In this document: positions 1 to 10,304 of the stretch, piece after piece
Layout of the letters: every line of letters starts with the position of its first letter
Position numbering within the stretch: the stretch's first letter is position 1
Assembly: GCF_050920415.1 (NCBI RefSeq)
Contig: NZ_CP169309.1
From: Escherichia coli
GTDB taxonomy: Bacteria; Pseudomonadota; Gammaproteobacteria; Enterobacterales; Enterobacteriaceae
Strand: one strand, 5' to 3'
Length of the DNA: 64,000 bases
Translations under genes and position numbers: made by a program
The notes under the pieces: model-generated
Told to the model about the DNA's origin: nothing
Database searches by the model: none
Seen by the model: only the letters and a program-made list of their open reading frames with translations

Positions 1-377
1 GAGAAATCACGGGGCCGTGGCAGTCGCATCCCAAACGGATGTTACGTCATAAAGCCATGATTCAGTGTGCCCGTCTGGCCTTCGGATTTGCTGGTATCTA
101 TGACAAGGATGAAGCCGAGCGCATTGTCGAAAATACCGCATACACTGCAGAACGTCAGCCGGAACGCGACATCACTCCGGTTAACGATGAAACCATGCAG
201 GAGATTAACACTCTGCTGATTGCCCTGGATAAAACATGGGATGACGACTTATTGCCGCTCTGTTCCCAGATATTTCGCCGCGACATTCGCGCATCGTCAG
301 AACTGACACAGGCCGAAGCAGTGAAAGCTCTCGGATTCCTGAAACAGAAAGCCACTGAGCAGAAGGTGGCAGCATGA
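1..377 (+). CDS. bet: Bet-like single-strand annealing recombinase, C-terminal part (5' end lies outside the window)
   Basis: Frame is open from the window edge to the stop at 375-377; ATGA stop/start overlap with the downstream exo gene as in the lambda red operon; C-terminal sequence recognised from memory as lambda Bet-like. Confidence 0.6.
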
Positions 378-1054
378 CACCGGACATTATCCTGCAGCGT
401 ACCGGGATCGACGTGAGAGCTGTCGAACAGGGGGATGATGCATGGCACAAATTACGGCTCGGCGTCATCACCGCTTCAGAAGTTCACAACGTGATAGCAA
501 AGCCCCGCTCAGGAAAGAAGTGGCCTGACATGAAAATGTCCTACTTCCACACCCTGCTTGCCGAGGTTTGCACCGGTGTGGCTCCGGAAGTTAACGCTAA
601 AGCACTGGCCTGGGGAAAACAGTACGAGAACGACGCCAGAGCCCTGTTTGAGTTTACTTCCGGCGTGAATGTTACTGAATCCCCGATCATCTATCGCGAC
701 GAAAGTATGCGCACCGCCTGCTCTCCCGATGGTTTATGCAGTGACGGCAACGGCCTTGAACTGAAATGCCCGTTTACCTCCCGGGATTTCATGAAATTCC
801 GGCTCGGTGGTTTCGAGGCAATAAAATCGGCTTACATGGCCCAGGTGCAGTACAGCATGTGGGTGACGCGAAAAGATGCCTGGTACTTTGCCAACTATGA
901 CCCACGAATGAAGCGTGAAGGCCTGCATTATGTCGTGATTGAGCAGGATGAAAAGTACATGGCGAGTTTTGACGAGATGGTGCCGGAGTTCATCGAAAAA
1001 ATGGACGAGGCACTGGCTGAAATTGGTTTTGTATTTGGGGAGCAATGGCGATGA
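374..1054 (+). CDS. exo: Lambda-type 5'-3' exonuclease (YqaJ/lambda Exo family), 226 aa
   Basis: 226 aa ORF starting [40 protein letters not shown], recognised as near-identical to phage lambda Exo; position immediately after bet. Confidence 0.85.
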
Positions 1055-1233
1055 AGCATCCTCACGATAATATCCGGGTAGGCGCGATCACTTTCGTCTA
1101 CTCCGTTACAAAGCGAGGCTGGGTATTTCCCGGCCTTTCTGTTACCCGAAATCCCCTGAAAGCACAGCGGCTGGCTGAGGAGATAAATAATAAACGGGGA
1201 GCTGTATGCACAAAGCATCTCCTGTTGAGTTAA
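1045..1233 (+). CDS. Small lambdoid early-left protein (lambda Orf60a-like)
   Basis: 62 aa ORF overlapping the exo stop, same position as orf60a in lambda. Confidence 0.45.
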
Positions 1234-1397
1234 GAACGAGCATTGAGATGGCACATAGCCTCGCTCAAATTGGAGTCAGGTTTGTGCCAATACCAGTAGA
1301 AACAGACGAAGAATTTCATACGTTAGCCGCATCCCTTTCACAAAAGCTGGAAATGATGGTGGCGAAAGCAGAAGCAGATGAGAGAGACCAGGTATGA
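1206..1397 (+). CDS. Small lambdoid early-left protein (lambda Orf63-like)
   Basis: 63 aa ORF, same strand, positional equivalent in the lambda b-region. Confidence 0.4.
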   Translation: MHKASPVELRTSIEMAHSLAQIGVRFVPIPVETDEEFHTLAASLSQKLEMMVAKAEADERDQV

Positions 1398-1473
1398 CAA
1401 CCACTGAATGCATTTTTCTGGCAGCGGGCTTCATATTCTGTGTGCTTATGCTTGCCGACATGGGACTTGTTCA

Positions 1474-1689
1474 ATGACACATCAGCAAGAAAACGCCCTT
1501 CGCAGTATTGCCCGTCAGGCTAATTCTGAAATCAAAAAAGCCAGACAGCAGTTCCCGGATAAAAACGTCGATGATATTTGCCGTAGCGTACTGAAGAAGC
1601 ACCGCGAAACGGTAACGCTGATGGGATTCACACCGACTCATTTAAGCCTGGCGATCGGCATGTTAAACGGCGTCTTTAAGGAACGGTGA
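1474..1689 (+). CDS. Small lambdoid early-left protein (lambda Orf61-like)
   Basis: ORF 1408-1689; start placed at the internal Met (MTHQQENALRS...) by analogy with lambda. Confidence 0.4.
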   Translation: MTHQQENALRSIARQANSEIKKARQQFPDKNVDDICRSVLKKHRETVTLMGFTPTHLSLAIGMLNGVFKER

Positions 1690-1787
1690 GCATGAAAAAC
1701 AAAATCATCATGGAGCTACAGGCTCCTTTTTTATTATTCGCATTCACCCTCAAGCGTATTAACCAACAATTCAGGGATTAATGAAAG

Positions 1788-2006
1788 ATGGCAGACATCA
1801 TTGATTCAGCATCAGGAATTGAAGAATTACAGCGCAACACAGCAATAAAAATGCGCCGCCTGAACCACCAGGCTATATCTGCCACTCATTGTTGTGAGTG
1901 TGGCGATCCGATAGATGAACGAAGACGCCTGGCCGTTCAGGGTTGTCGGACTTGTGCAAGTTGCCAGGAGGAGATCGAACTTAAGAACAAACAATGGGGA
2001 CTGTGA
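1788..2006 (+). CDS. TraR/DksA-family C4 zinc-finger protein, phage-encoded
   Basis: 72 aa with CxxC(17)CxxC pattern (CCECGD...CRTCASC) typical of TraR/DksA-like proteins; good spacing from upstream genes. Confidence 0.6.
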   Translation: MADIIDSASGIEELQRNTAIKMRRLNHQAISATHCCECGDPIDERRRLAVQGCRTCASCQEEIELKNKQWGL

Positions 2007-2053
2007 TGGCCTCAAAGCAGCAAATTTCAACATCGTCCAACTGAGGTGTAAAA

Positions 2054-2332
2054 ATGTTCAGAATCATTTTTCCTAACACCTGGTACGTCGACCACCACGG
2101 CACTCCCTGCAAAATCCTGCGTTCTACCCACAACAAAGTTCACTACATCCGAAAAGGCAGAACATGTATCGCCAGCATGTTCCGCTTTAATCATGACTTT
2201 GAACCTGTGAATAAAGCTGATGCAGATCGGATAGCAGAAGAGATCGAAACGGCAGAACACATTAAGAAGTTACGTGACATGCGTTCAAAAAGCAGAGGTA
2301 ACCATGGAATCATACAGCCTCACACTCGATGA
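2054..2332 (+). CDS. Hypothetical prophage protein
   Basis: 92 aa ORF between the zinc-finger gene and xis; no recognisable motif. Confidence 0.3.
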   Translation: MFRIIFPNTWYVDHHGTPCKILRSTHNKVHYIRKGRTCIASMFRFNHDFEPVNKADADRIAEEIETAEHIKKLRDMRSKSRGNHGIIQPHTR

Positions 2333-2675
2333 GGCCTGTCAGTTTCTTAAGATATCCAGACCAACCGCCACCAACTGGATACGAACAGGCCGCCTACAGG
2401 CAACACGTAAAGATCCAACCAAGCCAAAATCTCCTTACCTCACAACACGGCAAGCCTGCATTGCGGCGCTTCAGTCTCCGCTGCATACTGTCCAGGTGAG
2501 CGCGGGTGATGGCATAACAGAGGAAAGAAAATGTCACTCTTCCGCAGAAATGAAATATGGTATGCCTCGTATTCGCTCCCGGGCGGGAAACGAATTAAGG
2601 AATCTCTTGGCACAAAGGACAAGCGGCAAGCTCAGGAGTTGCACGACAAGCGAAAAGCAGAACTCTGGCGAGTAG
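2304..2675 (+). CDS. xis: Putative excisionase (Xis); 3' end uncertain because the frame stays open into int
   Basis: Start ATG at 2304 preceded by GAGG; N-terminal 60 residues resemble a small DNA-binding excisionase; located directly upstream of and overlapping int as in lambdoid phages. Confidence 0.4.
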
Positions 2676-3694
2676 AAAAGCTAGGGGATTTACCTGATGT
2701 CACTTTTGAAGAGGCCTGCCTAAGATGGCTTGAGGAAAAAGCTGATAAAAAATCTCTCGATTCAGATAAAAGCCGGATTGAGTTCTGGCTTGAACATTTT
2801 GAGGGTATAAGGCTTAAAGATATCTCGGAGGCAAAGATTTACTCTGCTGTAAGCAGAATGCATAACAGAAAGACGAAAGAAATATGGAAACAGAAAGTTC
2901 AGGCCGCCATCAGGAAAGGTAAAGAACTGCCTGTTTATGAACCAAAGCCAGTATCAACTCAGACAAAGGCAAAGCATCTTGCCATGATAAAGGCCATTCT
3001 CCGTGCTGCAGAACGCGACTGGAAGTGGCTGGAAAAAGCGCCTGTCATCAAGATACCAGCGGTCAGAAACAAGCGAGTCAGATGGCTGGAAAAGGAGGAA
3101 GCAAAACGCCTTATTGATGAGTGCCCCGAACCACTGAAATCTGTCGTCAAGTTTGCGCTGGCAACTGGTCTGAGAAAGTCGAACATCATAAATCTGGAAT
3201 GGCAACAAATCGACATGCAGCGACGAGTTGCCTGGGTGAATCCAGAAGAGAGCAAATCAAACCGCGCCATTGGTGTGGCGCTAAACGATACCGCCTGTAA
3301 AGTGTTGCGTGATCAAATAGGCAAGCATCACAAATGGGTGTTTGTACATACCAAGGCGGCTAAGCGAGCAGATGGAACATCAACGCCTGCGGTCAGGAAG
3401 ATGCGCATCGACAGCAAGACATCATGGCTATCAGCTTGTCGTCGTGCAGGAATTGAAGATTTCCGTTTCCATGACCTCAGACACACCTGGGCAAGCTGGC
3501 TGATTCAGTCAGGCGTCCCATTATCAGTGCTTCAGGAAATGGGCGGATGGGAGTCCATAGAAATGGTTCGTAGGTATGCTCACCTTGCGCCTAATCATTT
3601 GACAGAGCATGCGAGGAAAATAGACGACATTTTTGGTGATAATGTCCCAAATATGTCCCACTCTGGAATTATGGAGGATATAAAGAAGGCGTAA
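2531..3694 (+). CDS. intD: Tyrosine site-specific integrase of an argU-integrating lambdoid prophage (DLP12 IntD type), 387 aa
   Basis: 387 aa; C-terminal catalytic region with [10 protein letters not shown] and RRYAHL motifs; ends 15 bp from the 3' end of tRNA-Arg. Confidence 0.9.
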
Positions 3695-3709
3695 CTGATT
3701 GAATTGTAA

Positions 3710-3786
3710 TGGCGCGCCCTGCAGGATTCGAACCTGCGGCCCACGACTTAGAAGGTCGTTGCTCTATCCAACTGAGCTAAGGGCGC
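3710..3786 (-). tRNA. argU: tRNA-Arg (anticodon UCU)
   Basis: 77 nt cloverleaf read on the minus strand: GCGCCCTTAGCTCAGTTGGATAGAGCAACGACCTTCTAAGTCGTGGGCCGCAGGTTCGAATCCTGCAGGGCGCGCCA; anticodon loop CT-TCT-AA; 3' CCA encoded. Confidence 0.9.
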
Positions 3787-4028
3787 GTTGATACCGCAAT
3801 GCAGTGTAATCGCGTGAATTATACGGTCAACCCTTGCTGAGTCAATGGCTTTTGATCTGGTTGCTGAACAAGTGAACGACCACGTCTGATTTTCTGATTT
3901 ATTTCGCTATAGCGGCAAACAAACGCACCCCGCTGCGCATCTGAATCAAGAAAACCCGTATTTTCATGTATCAAAGTACAATTTCCAGCCCTAACGGAAA
4001 ATTGTCCTACCCTGTGAGACTGGTAACT

Positions 4029-4661
4029 ATGAAACCAACGTCGGTGATCATTATGGATACCCATCCTATCATCAGAATGTCCATTGAAGTTCTGTTGCAA
4101 AAAAACAGTGAATTGCAGATTGTCCTGAAAACGGATGATTACCGCATAACCATCGATTATCTCCGAACCCGTCCTGTTGATTTAATCATTATGGATATAG
4201 ACTTGCCCGGTACAGACGGTTTTACCTTCCTGAAAAGAATCAAACAAATCCAGAGTACGGTGAAGGTATTATTTTTATCATCAAAATCAGAATGCTTTTA
4301 TGCGGGCAGAGCGATACAAGCGGGTGCTAACGGTTTTGTCAGTAAATGCAATGATCAGAATGATATTTTTCATGCCGTCCAGATGATTCTCTCTGGATAC
4401 ACTTTTTTTCCCAGTGAAACGCTCAACTATATAAAAAGTAATAAATGCAGCACCAATAATTCAACAGCTACGGTGCTATCTAATCGTGAAGTGACTATAT
4501 TACGCTATCTGGTTAGCGGATTATCTAATAAAGAAATTGCCGACAAACTATTACTTAGCAATAAAACAATTAGTGCGCATAAATCTAATATTTATGGCAA
4601 ACTCGGTTTGCATTCAATTGTAGAACTTATCGACTACGCCAAATTATATGAATTAATATAA
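4029..4661 (+). CDS. fimZ: LuxR-family response regulator FimZ (receiver domain plus C-terminal HTH), 210 aa
   Basis: ORF 3966-4661; start taken at MKPTSVIIMD; receiver motif DLIIMDIDLPGTDG and LuxR HTH (EIADKLLLSNKTISAHKSNIYGKLG). Confidence 0.9.
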   Translation: MKPTSVIIMDTHPIIRMSIEVLLQKNSELQIVLKTDDYRITIDYLRTRPVDLIIMDIDLPGTDGFTFLKRIKQIQSTVKVLFLSSKSECFYAGRAIQAGANGFVSKCNDQNDIFHAVQMILSGYTFFPSETLNYIKSNKCSTNNSTATVLSNREVTILRYLVSGLSNKEIADKLLLSNKTISAHKSNIYGKLGLHSIVELIDYAKLYELI

Positions 4662-4663
4662 TA

Positions 4664-5179
4664 TTAATTATAATTGATCATAAATATCGCATCCGCTTTC
4701 GCCACACCTGGTTGGACACCGCTGGCTAACGCTCGATAATTGGCAAAAAAGTTTAGCGTTACATTGCCATTTGCATCTACCTCCTCAGTCGGGCTCGCCT
4801 CGCCCAGCGCAAGCCGGGAGCGATCGCTCTTGCGTAATTCGATGGCGACGGTTTGTGCCATTGCGGGATCGTCCAGGGCCAGCAGGTTGGCATCGGATGC
4901 CGGCGTTCCCGTAAATAAAATCGCGACTGATCCCGGAGGACATCCTTCCAGGCGCAGACTAAAAGGAACAGGTGCCGTGGTATCGCCAGCGGTCAGTAGT
5001 TGTGTCGTAGGCCATCTGCCTAAATCTACCGTCTTATCAACATCCGCTGTGTTTACGGTACAGGAGAAATCAACAACGTTACCGTGCAAATTGATATTAA
5101 TCGTTCCTAAAGGGTCAGCTGCCCATCCACTGGAACTCCACAGTAGCCCGCAGAAACAGCTAAAGATTACTCTTCTCAT
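4664..5179 (-). CDS. sfmF: Minor fimbrial subunit, 171 aa
   Basis: ORF 4664-5374; start at MRRVIFSCF signal peptide; fimbrial subunit fold; last gene of the sfm operon. Confidence 0.85.
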   Translation of the reverse strand: MRRVIFSCFCGLLWSSSGWAADPLGTININLHGNVVDFSCTVNTADVDKTVDLGRWPTTQLLTAGDTTAPVPFSLRLEGCPPGSVAILFTGTPASDANLLALDDPAMAQTVAIELRKSDRSRLALGEASPTEEVDANGNVTLNFFANYRALASGVQPGVAKADAIFMINYN

Positions 5180-5189
5180 TCTCCGTACC

Positions 5190-6197
5190 TCATTGATAAT
5201 CGACGCGTAAATACCCCAGCGCGCTAAACGGCCCTTCGGTCGGTTTTTGACCGGTAATACTGATAGGCCAGGCGCGAAGTGTGACATTGGCTGCCGCAGC
5301 TGCATCCAGACGGAAAGGAATAACGCTATTGAGATCGTTAGGCGTGATCGGCGTATCGTTCTGATCGGCGACAATAAAACCTAAATCCTGATTGTCCGAC
5401 ACCATCGCCTGACCAGAAACGGCACTGGCTTCCAGACGCATTGTTAAATAAGCCTGCGCAGCAACATTCGTACATTTGATCGCAATATTCTTGGTTTGTG
5501 GCATGACACCATTAGGTCGATTCCCCGGCCCTGCCGCACTAAATAACGATGCACCGATATCACCAAAATCAAATTCAACAATTTGCCCGGCATTTAATTC
5601 GCAGTTTTGCGGTACTTCAACCCGGCCACCAAAACTAATGGTATAAACAGGTGTAACCAACGGATCGTAAGGCGTTGATGTCACATACACGGTAAACATC
5701 ACCTGTCTGGGGATCTCCACCATGTTAATAAAAGGACGAATAACCTTTAAACGAAATATCAAACGAGAATCCATCACCCCGAACGGAAGGTTTTGCGAAA
5801 CGTTAGGATCTGTTCCCATACGGATATAATTTTGCGGGGGAAACTGAATATCCATCACGCTATCAACCAGACTCATCGCACCTAATAGATAATCATTTAA
5901 TTGCATATATTTATAATTATCGATAGTTTCCTGAACAACAAAGTTGGTGACATAACTACGGTATGTATAATTCACCAGCGTACCGGGTGGGCAAATTGCT
6001 GACACACCTACCCAGCCGGATTTTTCCGGTAAAACAACAATCTGACCTGGCTGGTTATTGGTGCTATTAAAGACATTTGAGAGATCATAGTGTTCATCTT
6101 CTGCTACGCCAGTACTATTTGCACAAACAGTAGCCCACGATATGTTCGTTAACCACAAACATGCCATTGCCAATAATGACCTGCAGATTATCTTCAT
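5190..6197 (-). CDS. sfmH: Fimbrial tip adhesin-like subunit
   Basis: 335 aa with signal peptide; position between usher and sfmF. Confidence 0.8.
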   Translation of the reverse strand: MKIICRSLLAMACLWLTNISWATVCANSTGVAEDEHYDLSNVFNSTNNQPGQIVVLPEKSGWVGVSAICPPGTLVNYTYRSYVTNFVVQETIDNYKYMQLNDYLLGAMSLVDSVMDIQFPPQNYIRMGTDPNVSQNLPFGVMDSRLIFRLKVIRPFINMVEIPRQVMFTVYVTSTPYDPLVTPVYTISFGGRVEVPQNCELNAGQIVEFDFGDIGASLFSAAGPGNRPNGVMPQTKNIAIKCTNVAAQAYLTMRLEASAVSGQAMVSDNQDLGFIVADQNDTPITPNDLNSVIPFRLDAAAAANVTLRAWPISITGQKPTEGPFSALGYLRVDYQ

Positions 6198-6209
6198 TGA
6201 TAATTTCCT

Positions 6210-9542: not shown

Positions 9543-9761
9543 AGTTAATACGCCTTGTGTATTCCTGACGGCAAAAATAAGGAGTATAAAGAAATGATTG
9601 CTTTGGTTTATTACAACACATCATTCCCTTTTCATTTAATAAAGCGGCATGATACAAAGTGAGCGTGATTTCGATTTACATTGCCACCATACCGCTTCAG
9701 ACAACCGGTACATTACTTTGTTATAAGACGTGATATATAATTCAAAACTACGTAGTTTTGA

Positions 9762-10304
9762 TTATTCGTATCTCATAATAAAAGTCGCGTCAGCATTTGC
9801 TTGCCCTGCTGATGCACTTGTACCGGTGCCTTTATAACGCGCAGAAAAATGAAGAACGTTGGTCCCGGGGATCAAGTTCTGGTTGGTTGAGAAGCTATTC
9901 CCATCAGGTTTGAGAATTGCGGATGTATTATCAAGTATTTCAATACCGACACCCGTTGCTGTTGTTGTATTGGTACTGGATGCAATGGCCAATAAATTAT
10001 CATTGATTGCATCCGCCTGACCAGAAAATGCAACGGCAGCATTAGCGGCAACAACAGGATCGCAGTCGTTCAACTGTATAGTGAATGGAATTAATGCAGA
10101 GGTATTACCAACAGCATTGAAAATATCGGTACGATATTGACCGAGTGTGACAACCTGGTCTGCCGAGTCAGTATTCACTGAACAGGCAGCATTCACCAGT
10201 TCGCCTTCAAAGTGAATTGTACCGCCATCTACAACGGCAGCATAACTACCCGTAGCGGCGAATAGTGCGGCAGCCAGCGCAGACGAAATAAATCTTAATT
10301 TCAT
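9762..10304 (-). CDS. sfmA: Major type 1-like fimbrial subunit, 180 aa
   Basis: ORF 9762-10337; start at [22 protein letters not shown] signal peptide; FimA-like. Confidence 0.85.

What the first reader, a model, noticed from the sequence alone, without database searches (positions are those of the whole stretch)
4659..4666. fimZ and sfmF converge with stop codons two bases apart
The fimZ stop (4659-4661) and the sfmF stop (4664-4666) on opposite strands leave no room for separate terminators, so transcription of the regulator and of the fimbrial operon must terminate within or read into each other. This could produce antisense interference between fimZ and the sfm operon.
Basis: seen in the sequence. 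Interest (0 to 1): 0.2.

Follow-up and report, generated by a model that had tools for sequence, protein, structure and literature searches.

The report
fimZ–sfmF tail-to-tail junction, terminator lost
In this E. coli locus a fimbrial regulator gene and the last gene of a silent fimbrial operon end only two bases apart because Escherichia lost the small terminator hairpin that related bacteria keep there; such tight junctions are common in E. coli, so the finding is real but ordinary.

Summary
fimZ (4029-4661, +) ends with TAA at 4659-4661. sfmF (4664-5179, -) ends with TAA, read as TTA at 4664-4666. Two bases (TA) lie between them. The same spacing is annotated in E. coli K-12 and occurs without indels in every E. 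coli record checked; 4170 of 5426 complete genomes carry the junction. E. albertii has it too.

It is not unusual. In a 200-kb sample of K-12, 6 of 35 convergent gene pairs had a gap of 2 bp or less, or overlapped.

Comparison adds one point. Salmonella, Citrobacter, Kosakonia, Cedecea, an Enterobacter-type contig and Buttiauxella all have a 45-85 bp spacer with a GC-rich hairpin at this position. In some it is a textbook bidirectional terminator. Both proteins end at the same residues, so Escherichia deleted the spacer.

No intrinsic-terminator candidate lies within about 570 nt (+) or 725 nt (-). Any polymerase reaching the junction must therefore enter the opposing gene.

Published K-12 data show no mapped 3' ends here. 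They also show early Rho-dependent termination of both transcription units, and sfm is a cryptic, H-NS-repressed operon. Regulatory antisense interference remains untested speculation. Low interest.

The parts
4029..4661 (+). fimZ CDS (210 aa, response-regulator receiver + LuxR/GerE HTH); stop TAA at 4659-4661
   Evidence: RefSeq annotation of a 100% identical record mapped to the window; translation; Pfam PF00072 + PF00196
4662..4663 (.). The whole intergenic gap: TA
   Evidence: Sequence. Same TA in K-12 and other E. coli contigs; AC in E. albertii
4664..5179 (-). sfmF CDS (171 aa, fimbrial minor subunit, last gene of sfmACDHF); stop TAA read as TTA at 4664-4666
   Evidence: Annotation; translation; Pfam PF00419
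4651..4669 (.). Perfect AT-only palindrome AATTAATAT-A-ATATTAATT spanning both stops. Its RNA hairpin is very weak (-2.2/-1.6 kcal/mol)
   Evidence: the repeat finder I5; folding. It is one of 6 distinct perfect inverted repeats (arms of at least 9) in the 64 kb and appears in 0.3-2% of local shuffles. It is not kept in E. albertii
4662..4841 (+). First 180 nt of fimZ read-through RNA (antisense to the sfmF 3' end). It is moderately C>G (C/G 1.2-1.5, 70th-86th percentile of the window), so it is a possible Rho loading region. A stronger C>G peak lies at 5102-5241
   Evidence: 80-nt sliding C/G profile against the window background; inference only
5229..5252 (+). First terminator-like hairpin plus T-run met by fimZ read-through (CGGCC-CTTC-GGTCG GTTTTTGACC), 568 nt past the fimZ stop, inside sfmH antisense
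   Evidence: Consensus scan; relaxed RNAfold scan
4264..4383 (-). Best C>G (rut-like) stretch on sfm read-through RNA (C/G 1.4-1.8, about 84th-94th percentile). The first 260 nt after the sfmF stop are C-poor (11-16% C). Rho release would therefore be expected only after the 3' half of fimZ has been transcribed in antisense
   Evidence: inference only
3923..3938 (-). First terminator-like hairpin plus T-rich tail on the sfm strand, about 725 nt past the sfmF stop, upstream of fimZ and just before the argU promoter-like site (3845-3818)
   Evidence: Consensus scan; relaxed scan
3710..3786 (-). argU (tRNA-Arg UCU; fimU in Salmonella), co-oriented with the sfm operon. fimY and fimW, which lie between fimZ and this tRNA in Salmonella, are absent here
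   Evidence: ARAGORN; Rfam; gene maps of the orthologous loci; PMC3604780
4713..4740 (+). Promoter-like site TGGACA-16-GATAAT (10/12) inside sfmF, pointing antisense to sfmF. It lies close to a published RpoS-holoenzyme SELEX peak assigned to sfmF
   Evidence: Scan; PMC5493296 peak 562966. The mapping to about window 4766 assumes older K-12 coordinates (offset from memory)

Best explanation
The 2-bp junction is a derived, passively tolerated state of a decaying locus, not a regulatory device. The ancestor of the Salmonella-type fim cluster had a 45-85 bp spacer between fimZ and fimF carrying a GC-rich hairpin that served as a bidirectional terminator. In the Escherichia lineage, before E. coli and E. 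albertii split, the spacer was deleted down to 2 bp while both stop codons and both C-termini were kept. The same lineage also lost fimY and fimW, and the operon became cryptic. The junction now has no intrinsic terminator. Polymerases that reach it run into the opposing gene and are most likely released by Rho on the untranslated antisense RNA, probably helped by H-NS on this AT-rich DNA (29% GC at 4500-4699). In ordinary growth few polymerases arrive, because both units are weakly transcribed and already stopped by Rho upstream. Shown here: the anatomy, the conservation within Escherichia, the spacer and hairpin in relatives, and the absence of terminator motifs. Shown in published K-12 data: silence and early Rho termination. 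Inferred: the direction of the deletion, and Rho/H-NS as the present means of termination.
For: (1) The 2-bp gap is present in the window, K-12, E. coli contigs L089 and L096, and three E. albertii loci. 4170 of 5426 complete E. coli genomes carry the junction, and the 29 full-length rows of a spread sample across the ranking show no indels.
(2) Seven orthologous loci outside Escherichia have spacers of 45-85 bp: Salmonella 45, Kosakonia 49, Citrobacter 55 (two loci), Cedecea 75, an Enterobacter-type contig 75, Buttiauxella 85. Each has a GC-rich hairpin, and the fold of the spacer region is -18 to -34 kcal/mol against -2.2/-1.6 in E. coli.
(3) Kosakonia (AAAATACTCCCGG...CCGGGAGTATTTTTT) and Buttiauxella (AAAAAAACCGG...CCGGTTTTTTT) carry canonical A-tract/stem/T-tract bidirectional terminators. 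Salmonella and Citrobacter keep the same ACTCCCG...CGGGAGT stem as Kosakonia.
(4) FimZ and SfmF/FimF end at homologous residues in all taxa, so the difference is a spacer deletion, not gene extension.
(5) No terminator candidates lie near the junction, and no Rfam family matches there.
(6) In K-12 there are no Term-seq 3' ends near the junction. Rho termination regions lie at 564445(-) inside fimZ and 562226(+) inside sfmD, with low read counts.
(7) sfm is cryptic, H-NS-repressed, absent from phylogroup B2 and partly decayed.
(8) Tight or overlapping convergent pairs are common in K-12, 6 of 35.
Against: The direction of change rests on outgroup comparison of seven loci without a formal tree. 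The expression data are from K-12 in LB and M63 only; where fimZ or sfm are induced, for example by SlyA overproduction, which raises sfmHF 2.6-fold, polymerases may reach the junction often. The sfm read-through RNA is C-poor for its first 260 nt, so Rho may act late and the antisense overlap with fimZ could be long. The AT-only palindrome across the stops arises in only 0.3-2% of local shuffles and is unexplained. Rho and H-NS action at this site was not tested directly.
Confidence: 0.7

Rival explanations
1. One reading: the abutting stops form a regulatory convergent-transcription module. sfm operon read-through makes antisense RNA to fimZ, and fimZ read-through does the same to sfm. This gives mutual interference by polymerase collision or RNase III cleavage of duplex RNA, for example negative feedback on the activator FimZ.
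For: Overlap is geometrically unavoidable and no terminator lies near the junction. sfm read-through RNA is C-poor at first, so it could cover the fimZ HTH-coding half before Rho acts. In Salmonella, FimZ activates fimA and itself (PMC2527010), so a feedback loop is conceivable. The junction is fixed across E. coli and E. albertii despite about 25% nucleotide divergence of the locus.
Against: No overlapping transcripts or 3' ends have been reported at the junction. Both units are near-silent and stopped by Rho upstream in K-12. The locus is cryptic, lacks fimY and fimW, is missing from B2 strains and is often disrupted: truncated fimZ in L089 and L096, and an sfmF pseudogene in one E. albertii strain. 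About 17% of K-12 convergent pairs are equally tight. I found no paper linking FimZ to sfm control in E. coli.
Confidence: 0.1
2. The AT-only palindrome and surrounding AT-rich DNA (29% GC) act as a protein-mediated stop. An H-NS (or other nucleoid protein) filament nucleated at the junction pauses polymerases from both sides and hands them to Rho, functionally replacing the lost hairpin.
For: The local GC minimum lies exactly at the junction. The perfect 19-bp palindrome is locally improbable. sfm is H-NS-repressed, and sfmHF is flagged as H-NS-bound in the table of PMC5797941. That bridged H-NS filaments promote pausing and Rho termination is established knowledge, cited from memory and not checked here.
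Against: fimZ is AT-rich in all genera, including those that keep the hairpin. The palindrome is not conserved in E. albertii and follows largely from AT-rich terminal codons. No binding or termination data exist for this site. The Rho regions mapped in K-12 are elsewhere.
Confidence: 0.15
3. Annotation artefact: one of the two reading frames really ends elsewhere, so the stops are not truly 2 bp apart.
For: None beyond the general possibility. The mechanical ORF list gives over-long starts for both genes.
Against: Stop positions do not depend on the choice of start. Both C-termini align residue for residue with orthologues in six other genera. Independent RefSeq annotations agree. Pfam domains run to the ends: GerE to residue 204 of 210 and Fimbrial to 171 of 171.
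Confidence: 0.01

Closest known systems
Tightly abutting or overlapping convergent gene pairs of E. coli K-12 (ypdC/fryA gap 2, ydhK/sodC gap 0, purR/punR, yfeH/ypeB and yrbL/mtgA overlap 4, yhbQ/yhbS overlap 14)
   Same: Two convergent CDSs with no intergenic room for a terminator. This is the same class of layout and it is frequent: 6 of 35 sampled pairs.
   Different: Here the comparative record shows that the tight form arose by loss of an ancestral terminator-bearing spacer. I did not examine the history of the other pairs.
Bidirectional intrinsic terminators between convergent genes, including the orthologous fimZ-fimF spacer of Kosakonia, Buttiauxella, Cedecea, Salmonella and Citrobacter
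   Same: Same genomic position between the same two genes. In relatives one GC-rich hairpin, with A- and T-tracts in some, serves both strands. Such elements are reported between hundreds of E. coli convergent pairs (cited in bioRxiv 10.1101/2022.10.23.513370 and 10.64898/2026.03.23.713779).
   Different: The Escherichia junction has no GC-rich hairpin and no U-tract, only an AT palindrome of -2 kcal/mol. It is the absence of this element.
Salmonella enterica fimAICDHF-fimZYW type 1 fimbrial cluster
   Same: Orthologous, syntenic locus next to tRNA-Arg(UCU). fimZ converges on the last structural gene, and FimZ is 73% identical.
   Different: Salmonella keeps a 45-bp spacer with a hairpin, and has fimY, fimW and a functional, regulated operon. 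E. coli sfm lacks these and is cryptic.
Excludon or convergent transcriptional interference loci (long antisense overlaps giving reciprocal expression)
   Same: Convergent units whose transcripts must overlap if both are made.
   Different: No long overlapping transcript, reciprocal expression or RNase III dependence has been shown here, and public K-12 data show near silence.

Membership tests
Bidirectional intrinsic terminator between convergent genes | Stable GC-rich stem-loop located between the two stop codons | tested here: not met
   The gap is 2 bp. The best fold across the junction is -2.2 (+) and -1.6 (-) kcal/mol and is AT-only, against -18 to -34 kcal/mol in seven orthologous loci.
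Bidirectional intrinsic terminator between convergent genes | U-rich tract 3' of the stem on each strand (A-tract/stem/T-tract in the DNA) | tested here: not met
   No hairpin plus T-run lies within 568 nt (+) or about 725 nt (-) of the stops. It is present in Kosakonia, Buttiauxella and Cedecea orthologues.
Overlapping bidirectional termination site of the SEnd-seq type (collision-driven) | Mapped, overlapping 3' ends of the two convergent transcripts with a hairpin-forming overlap region | not testable with these tools
   No 3' ends are reported near K-12 563846/7 in the Term-seq tables of PMC7815308. The hairpin potential of the overlap is negligible.
Rho-dependent terminator downstream of a stop codon | C-rich, G-poor untranslated RNA (rut-like) after the stop | tested here: inconclusive
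   On the + strand RNA, C/G is 1.2-1.5 for 180 nt, with a 99th-percentile peak at 5122-5201. The - strand RNA is C-poor for 260 nt, with its best stretch at 4383-4264.
Rho-dependent terminator downstream of a stop codon | Bicyclomycin-sensitive read-through at the site | tested here: inconclusive
   Published K-12 Rho regions in this locus lie at 564445(-), 562226(+), 561669(-) and 559169(-), not at the junction. Read counts there are too low to judge.
Excludon / antisense-interference module | Long transcript from one unit covering the opposing gene, with reciprocal expression | not testable with these tools
   This needs strand-specific RNA-seq under inducing conditions. I found no such report.
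Salmonella-type (gamma-1) fim/sfm chaperone-usher cluster | Synteny folD - major subunit - chaperone - usher - adhesin - minor subunit, then convergent fimZ and tRNA-Arg(UCU) | tested here: met
   Annotation of the identical record and of K-12; ARAGORN; orthologous gene maps.
Salmonella-type (gamma-1) fim/sfm chaperone-usher cluster | Full regulatory set fimZ + fimY + fimW | tested here: not met
   Only about 240 bp separate argU (3710-3786) from fimZ (4029). The 240-aa and 198-aa genes upstream of fimZ in Salmonella and Citrobacter are absent.

The most novel reading that the evidence does not exclude
Deletion of the ancestral bidirectional terminator in Escherichia created an obligatory convergent overlap that couples the sfm operon to its own activator gene. 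Once sfm is switched on, read-through across the 2-bp junction produces antisense RNA over the fimZ HTH-coding half (and possibly the whole gene and its promoter) and shuts FimZ down. This would give a lineage-specific negative-feedback or pulse circuit that Salmonella, insulated by its hairpin, lacks.
Probability: 0.06. Interest if true: 0.4.

Novelty: already known. Interest (0 to 1): 0.12.

Why it matters
It matters little. The junction is in the reference annotation of E. coli K-12 and belongs to a common class: about one in six convergent pairs sampled are this tight. The modest added value is evolutionary. This is a clean example in which a conserved bidirectional terminator hairpin was excised down to 2 bp in one genus, along with other signs of decay of a fimbrial locus (loss of fimY and fimW, cryptic expression, patchy presence). 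It could serve as a natural test case for how E. coli copes with convergent units that lack an intergenic terminator, by swapping in the Salmonella or Kosakonia spacer. There is no indication of new biology.

Tried and rejected
(1) A genome-contig scan with FimZ was swamped by generic LuxR-type response regulators and gave only one true orthologue, E. albertii. I recovered orthologous loci through protein search plus exact-protein look-ups instead.
(2) I searched for hidden intrinsic terminators inside the opposing coding regions with a consensus scan and a relaxed RNAfold scan (hairpin of -6 kcal/mol or better plus at least 4 U in 8). Nothing convincing lies near the junction. The GCAAAC-N3-GTTTGC hairpin in the fimZ 3' coding region (4584-4624) is weak (-6.8) and has a poor tail.
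(3) The AT palindrome 4651-4669 as a conserved element: it is kept in E. coli but not in E. albertii, its RNA hairpin is negligible, and I left it unexplained.
(4) Known RNA families at the junction: none; only argU matched.
(5) Literature on fimZ/sfmF antisense transcription, terminators, or FimZ control of sfm in E. coli: nothing found. Thomason 2015 and Ju 2019 were not held in the library.
(6) L089 and L096, with 83-87% FimZ identity, looked like divergent Escherichia species. They turned out to be ordinary E. coli (95% nucleotide identity) with truncated fimZ.

Full report
**Observation.** The window around 4650-4679 reads GAATTAATAT AATATTAATT ATAATTGATC. The + strand ORF ends with TAA at 4659-4661. 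The - strand ORF ends with TAA, seen as TTA at 4664-4666, leaving the dinucleotide TA (4662-4663) between them. A complete E. coli genome 100% identical over 3708-5400 annotates fimZ at positions equal to window 4029-4661 and sfmF at 4664-5179. E. coli K-12 MG1655 has exactly the same layout: sfmF 563330-563845 and fimZ 563848-564480. Pfam confirms a receiver + GerE/LuxR regulator and a Fimbrial-domain subunit, with domains running to the protein ends.

**How unusual is it?** I read the annotation of four evenly spaced 50-kb stretches of K-12. They hold 35 convergent CDS pairs with a median gap of 42 bp. Six pairs have a gap of 2 bp or less, or overlap:
- ypdC/fryA, gap 2
- ydhK/sodC, gap 0
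- purR/punR, yfeH/ypeB and yrbL/mtgA, each overlapping by 4
- yhbQ/yhbS, overlapping by 14

That is 17% (Clopper-Pearson 95% CI 7-34%). A recent preprint counts 704 convergent pairs in K-12, so roughly a hundred such junctions would be expected genome-wide. A 2-bp tail-to-tail junction is ordinary in E. coli.

**Conservation within Escherichia.** A 251-bp query centred on the junction matches 4170 of 5426 complete E. coli genomes over at least 80% of its length. In a 30-row sample spread over the whole ranking, 29 rows cover at least 96% of the query and have record spans equal to the query span, so they contain no indels; the last row matches only the first 84 bases, within fimZ. The remaining genomes lack the region, which agrees with the reported absence of sfm from phylogroup B2 (PMC3604780). 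Three E. albertii loci, only about 75% identical in nucleotides across the region, also have a 2-bp gap, but with different bases (TAA-AC-CTA).

**Comparison with other genera.** I located orthologous fimZ genes and fetched their contigs. The gap between fimZ and the fimF/sfmF orthologue is:

| Taxon | Gap (bp) |
|---|---|
| Salmonella enterica | 45 |
| Kosakonia | 49 |
| Citrobacter (two loci) | 55 |
| Cedecea | 75 |
| Enterobacter-type contig | 75 |
| Buttiauxella | 85 |

 Every spacer carries a GC-rich hairpin:
- Kosakonia has AAAATACTCCCGG-N9-CCGGGAGTATTTTTT and Buttiauxella has AAAAAAACCGG-N9-CCGGTTTTTTT. Both are textbook bidirectional intrinsic terminators.
- Cedecea and the Enterobacter-type contig have ACCGGGA...TCCCGGT followed by TATTTTCT.
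- Salmonella and Citrobacter keep the same ACTCCCG...CGGGAGT stem as Kosakonia but without clear U-tracts.

The minimum free energy of the spacer region with 15 nt of flank on each side is -18 to -34 kcal/mol in these taxa, against -2.2/-1.6 in E. coli and -0.8/-1.5 in E. albertii. FimZ ends ...ELI* or ...ELL*, and SfmF/FimF ends ...FMINYN* (…INYY* in two genera), at homologous positions throughout. The difference is therefore a spacer deletion, not gene extension. Since all six outgroup genera have the spacer, and three of them share a homologous stem, the parsimonious reading is that Escherichia deleted about 43 bp or more, including the terminator, before E. coli and E. albertii diverged. 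This direction is inferred, not shown with a tree.

**What is left at the junction.** The consensus scan finds no terminator-like site near the junction. The first site on the fimZ strand is at 5229-5242, 568 nt downstream and inside sfmH antisense. The first on the sfm strand is at 3938-3923, about 725 nt downstream, beyond the fimZ start and just before the argU promoter-like site. A relaxed RNAfold-based scan adds nothing convincing, and Rfam finds only argU. A perfect AT-only palindrome (AATTAATAT-A-ATATTAATT, 4651-4669) spans both stops. It arises in only 0.3-2% of local shuffles and is kept in E. coli, but it is broken in E. albertii and is thermodynamically negligible as RNA. I regard it as a by-product of AT-rich terminal codons, and I cannot exclude a protein-binding role.

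The junction sits in the local GC minimum (29% at 4500-4699), though fimZ is AT-rich in all genera.

The C/G profiles of the read-through RNAs differ between the strands:
- After the fimZ stop, the RNA is moderately C>G for about 180 nt, with a strong C>G peak at 5102-5241.
- After the sfmF stop, the RNA is C-poor for about 260 nt, with its best rut-like stretch at 4383-4264.

If Rho is the terminating factor, sfm read-through would cover at least the HTH-coding half of fimZ before release. This is inference from composition only.

**Published expression evidence (K-12).** In the Term-seq tables of Adams et al. 2021 (PMC7815308; LB OD 0.4 and 2.0, M63) no curated 3' end is assigned to fimZ, sfmF or sfmH, and none has a coordinate of 5636xx-5641xx. 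Their bicyclomycin experiment lists four Rho termination regions in this locus:

| K-12 coordinate (strand) | Location | Reads per 800-nt window |
|---|---|---|
| 564445 (-) | inside fimZ, 35 nt after its start (about window 4064) | 55/27 without BCM; 24/65 with BCM |
| 562226 (+) | near the end of sfmD (about window 6283) | 35/11 without BCM; 93/133 with BCM |
| 561669 (-) | antisense to sfmD | 427/13 without BCM |
| 559169 (-) | antisense to sfmC | 40/20 without BCM |

Both units are therefore barely transcribed and are stopped by Rho well before the junction under these conditions. The literature describes sfm as cryptic, poorly expressed and H-NS-repressed, with SlyA overproduction raising sfmHF 2.6-fold (PMC5797941). 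It also describes sfm as the degenerate orthologue of the Salmonella fim cluster (PMC3604780). In Salmonella, FimZ activates fimA and itself, and fimZ is H-NS-repressed (PMC2527010). I found no paper on FimZ control of sfm in E. coli, or on antisense transcription at this junction.

**Interpretation.** The step to antisense interference is possible but unsupported. The genes are near-silent. The locus shows multiple signs of decay: no fimY or fimW, truncated fimZ alleles in L089 and L096, an sfmF pseudogene in E. albertii NBRC 107761, and absence from B2. The same geometry is also common elsewhere in the genome.

My best explanation (confidence about 0.7) is a neutral or tolerated loss of an ancestral bidirectional terminator in a silenced locus, with Rho, probably aided by H-NS, handling the rare read-through. 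The rivals are a functional convergent-interference circuit (about 0.1), a protein-mediated stop at the AT palindrome (about 0.15) and an annotation artefact (refuted).

**Comparison with known systems.** The junction belongs to the class of abutting or overlapping convergent gene pairs. It is the negative image of a bidirectional intrinsic terminator, since both defining features, the GC-rich stem and the U-tracts, were tested and not met. It fails the test for a complete Salmonella-type fim regulatory set. Whether it behaves like an excludon or a collision-type termination site cannot be tested here.

**Novelty and score.** The fact itself is already in the K-12 annotation, and I did not find the comparative note (terminator deletion in Escherichia) in the searchable literature, though it is minor. 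Interest 0.12.

Noticed in passing
window 374-3694 (integrase 2531-3694, HTH_17 excisionase-like 2274-2675, YqaJ-type exonuclease 374-1054): The end of a lambdoid (DLP12-like) prophage is integrated at argU. The otherwise 100%-identical genome NZ_CP169399.1 lacks it and has envY next to the tRNA instead, so the insertion is strain-variable.
   Followed up: partly
window 4377-4398 plus T-run to 4409, + strand, inside fimZ: A terminator-like hairpin (GTCCAGA...TCTGGAT, -8.8 kcal/mol) followed by T7 lies in the sense strand of fimZ at codons about 117-127. The stem is specific to E. coli (-3.1 kcal/mol in Salmonella, disrupted in E. albertii), while the T-run comes from conserved Phe-Phe codons. 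It could cause premature termination of fimZ mRNA.
   Followed up: partly
window about 4064 (K-12 564445, - strand): Published bicyclomycin data place a Rho termination region only 35 nt into the fimZ ORF in K-12. This suggests fimZ is mostly silenced by premature termination in LB (PMC7815308, supplementary file 2).
   Followed up: partly
window 6149-6204 (+), with RNA running to about 6840: Three overlapping promoter-like sites sit at the sfmH/sfmD boundary and point antisense to sfmD. They fit a published antisense RNA with a Rho stop at K-12 561669(-) and 427 reads upstream against 13 downstream. That coverage is far above fimZ coverage, so the RNA is independent of fimZ read-through.
   Followed up: partly
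window about 4713-4770, inside sfmF: An RpoS-holoenzyme genomic SELEX peak is assigned to the interior of sfmF (PMC5493296, position 562966 in older K-12 coordinates). It lies near a 10/12 promoter-like site on the + strand (4713-4740) that would give RNA antisense to sfmF.
   Followed up: no
window 9742-9761: A perfect 20-bp palindrome TCAAAACTACGTAGTTTTGA lies immediately 3' of the sfmA stop (sfmA is about 9762-10304, - strand), in the sfmA-sfmC intergenic region. It may be an attenuator or stabiliser hairpin after the major-subunit gene, as in other fimbrial operons.
   Followed up: no
window 3700-5400: This strain's fimZ-sfmF allele is rare. Only 5 of 5426 complete E. coli genomes are at least 99% identical, most are 95-99% or 90-95%, and K-12 is about 95.7%. 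E. albertii is only about 75% identical across the locus, which seems well below what I would expect for these two species (from memory).
   Followed up: no
L003 3636-4154 (E. albertii NBRC 107761); L089 204-764 and L096 2501-3034 (E. coli contigs): There are signs of ongoing decay of the locus. One E. albertii strain has an in-frame stop (W to *) in sfmF, although the gene is intact in two others. Some E. coli contigs carry truncated fimZ genes (186 and 177 aa).
   Followed up: partly
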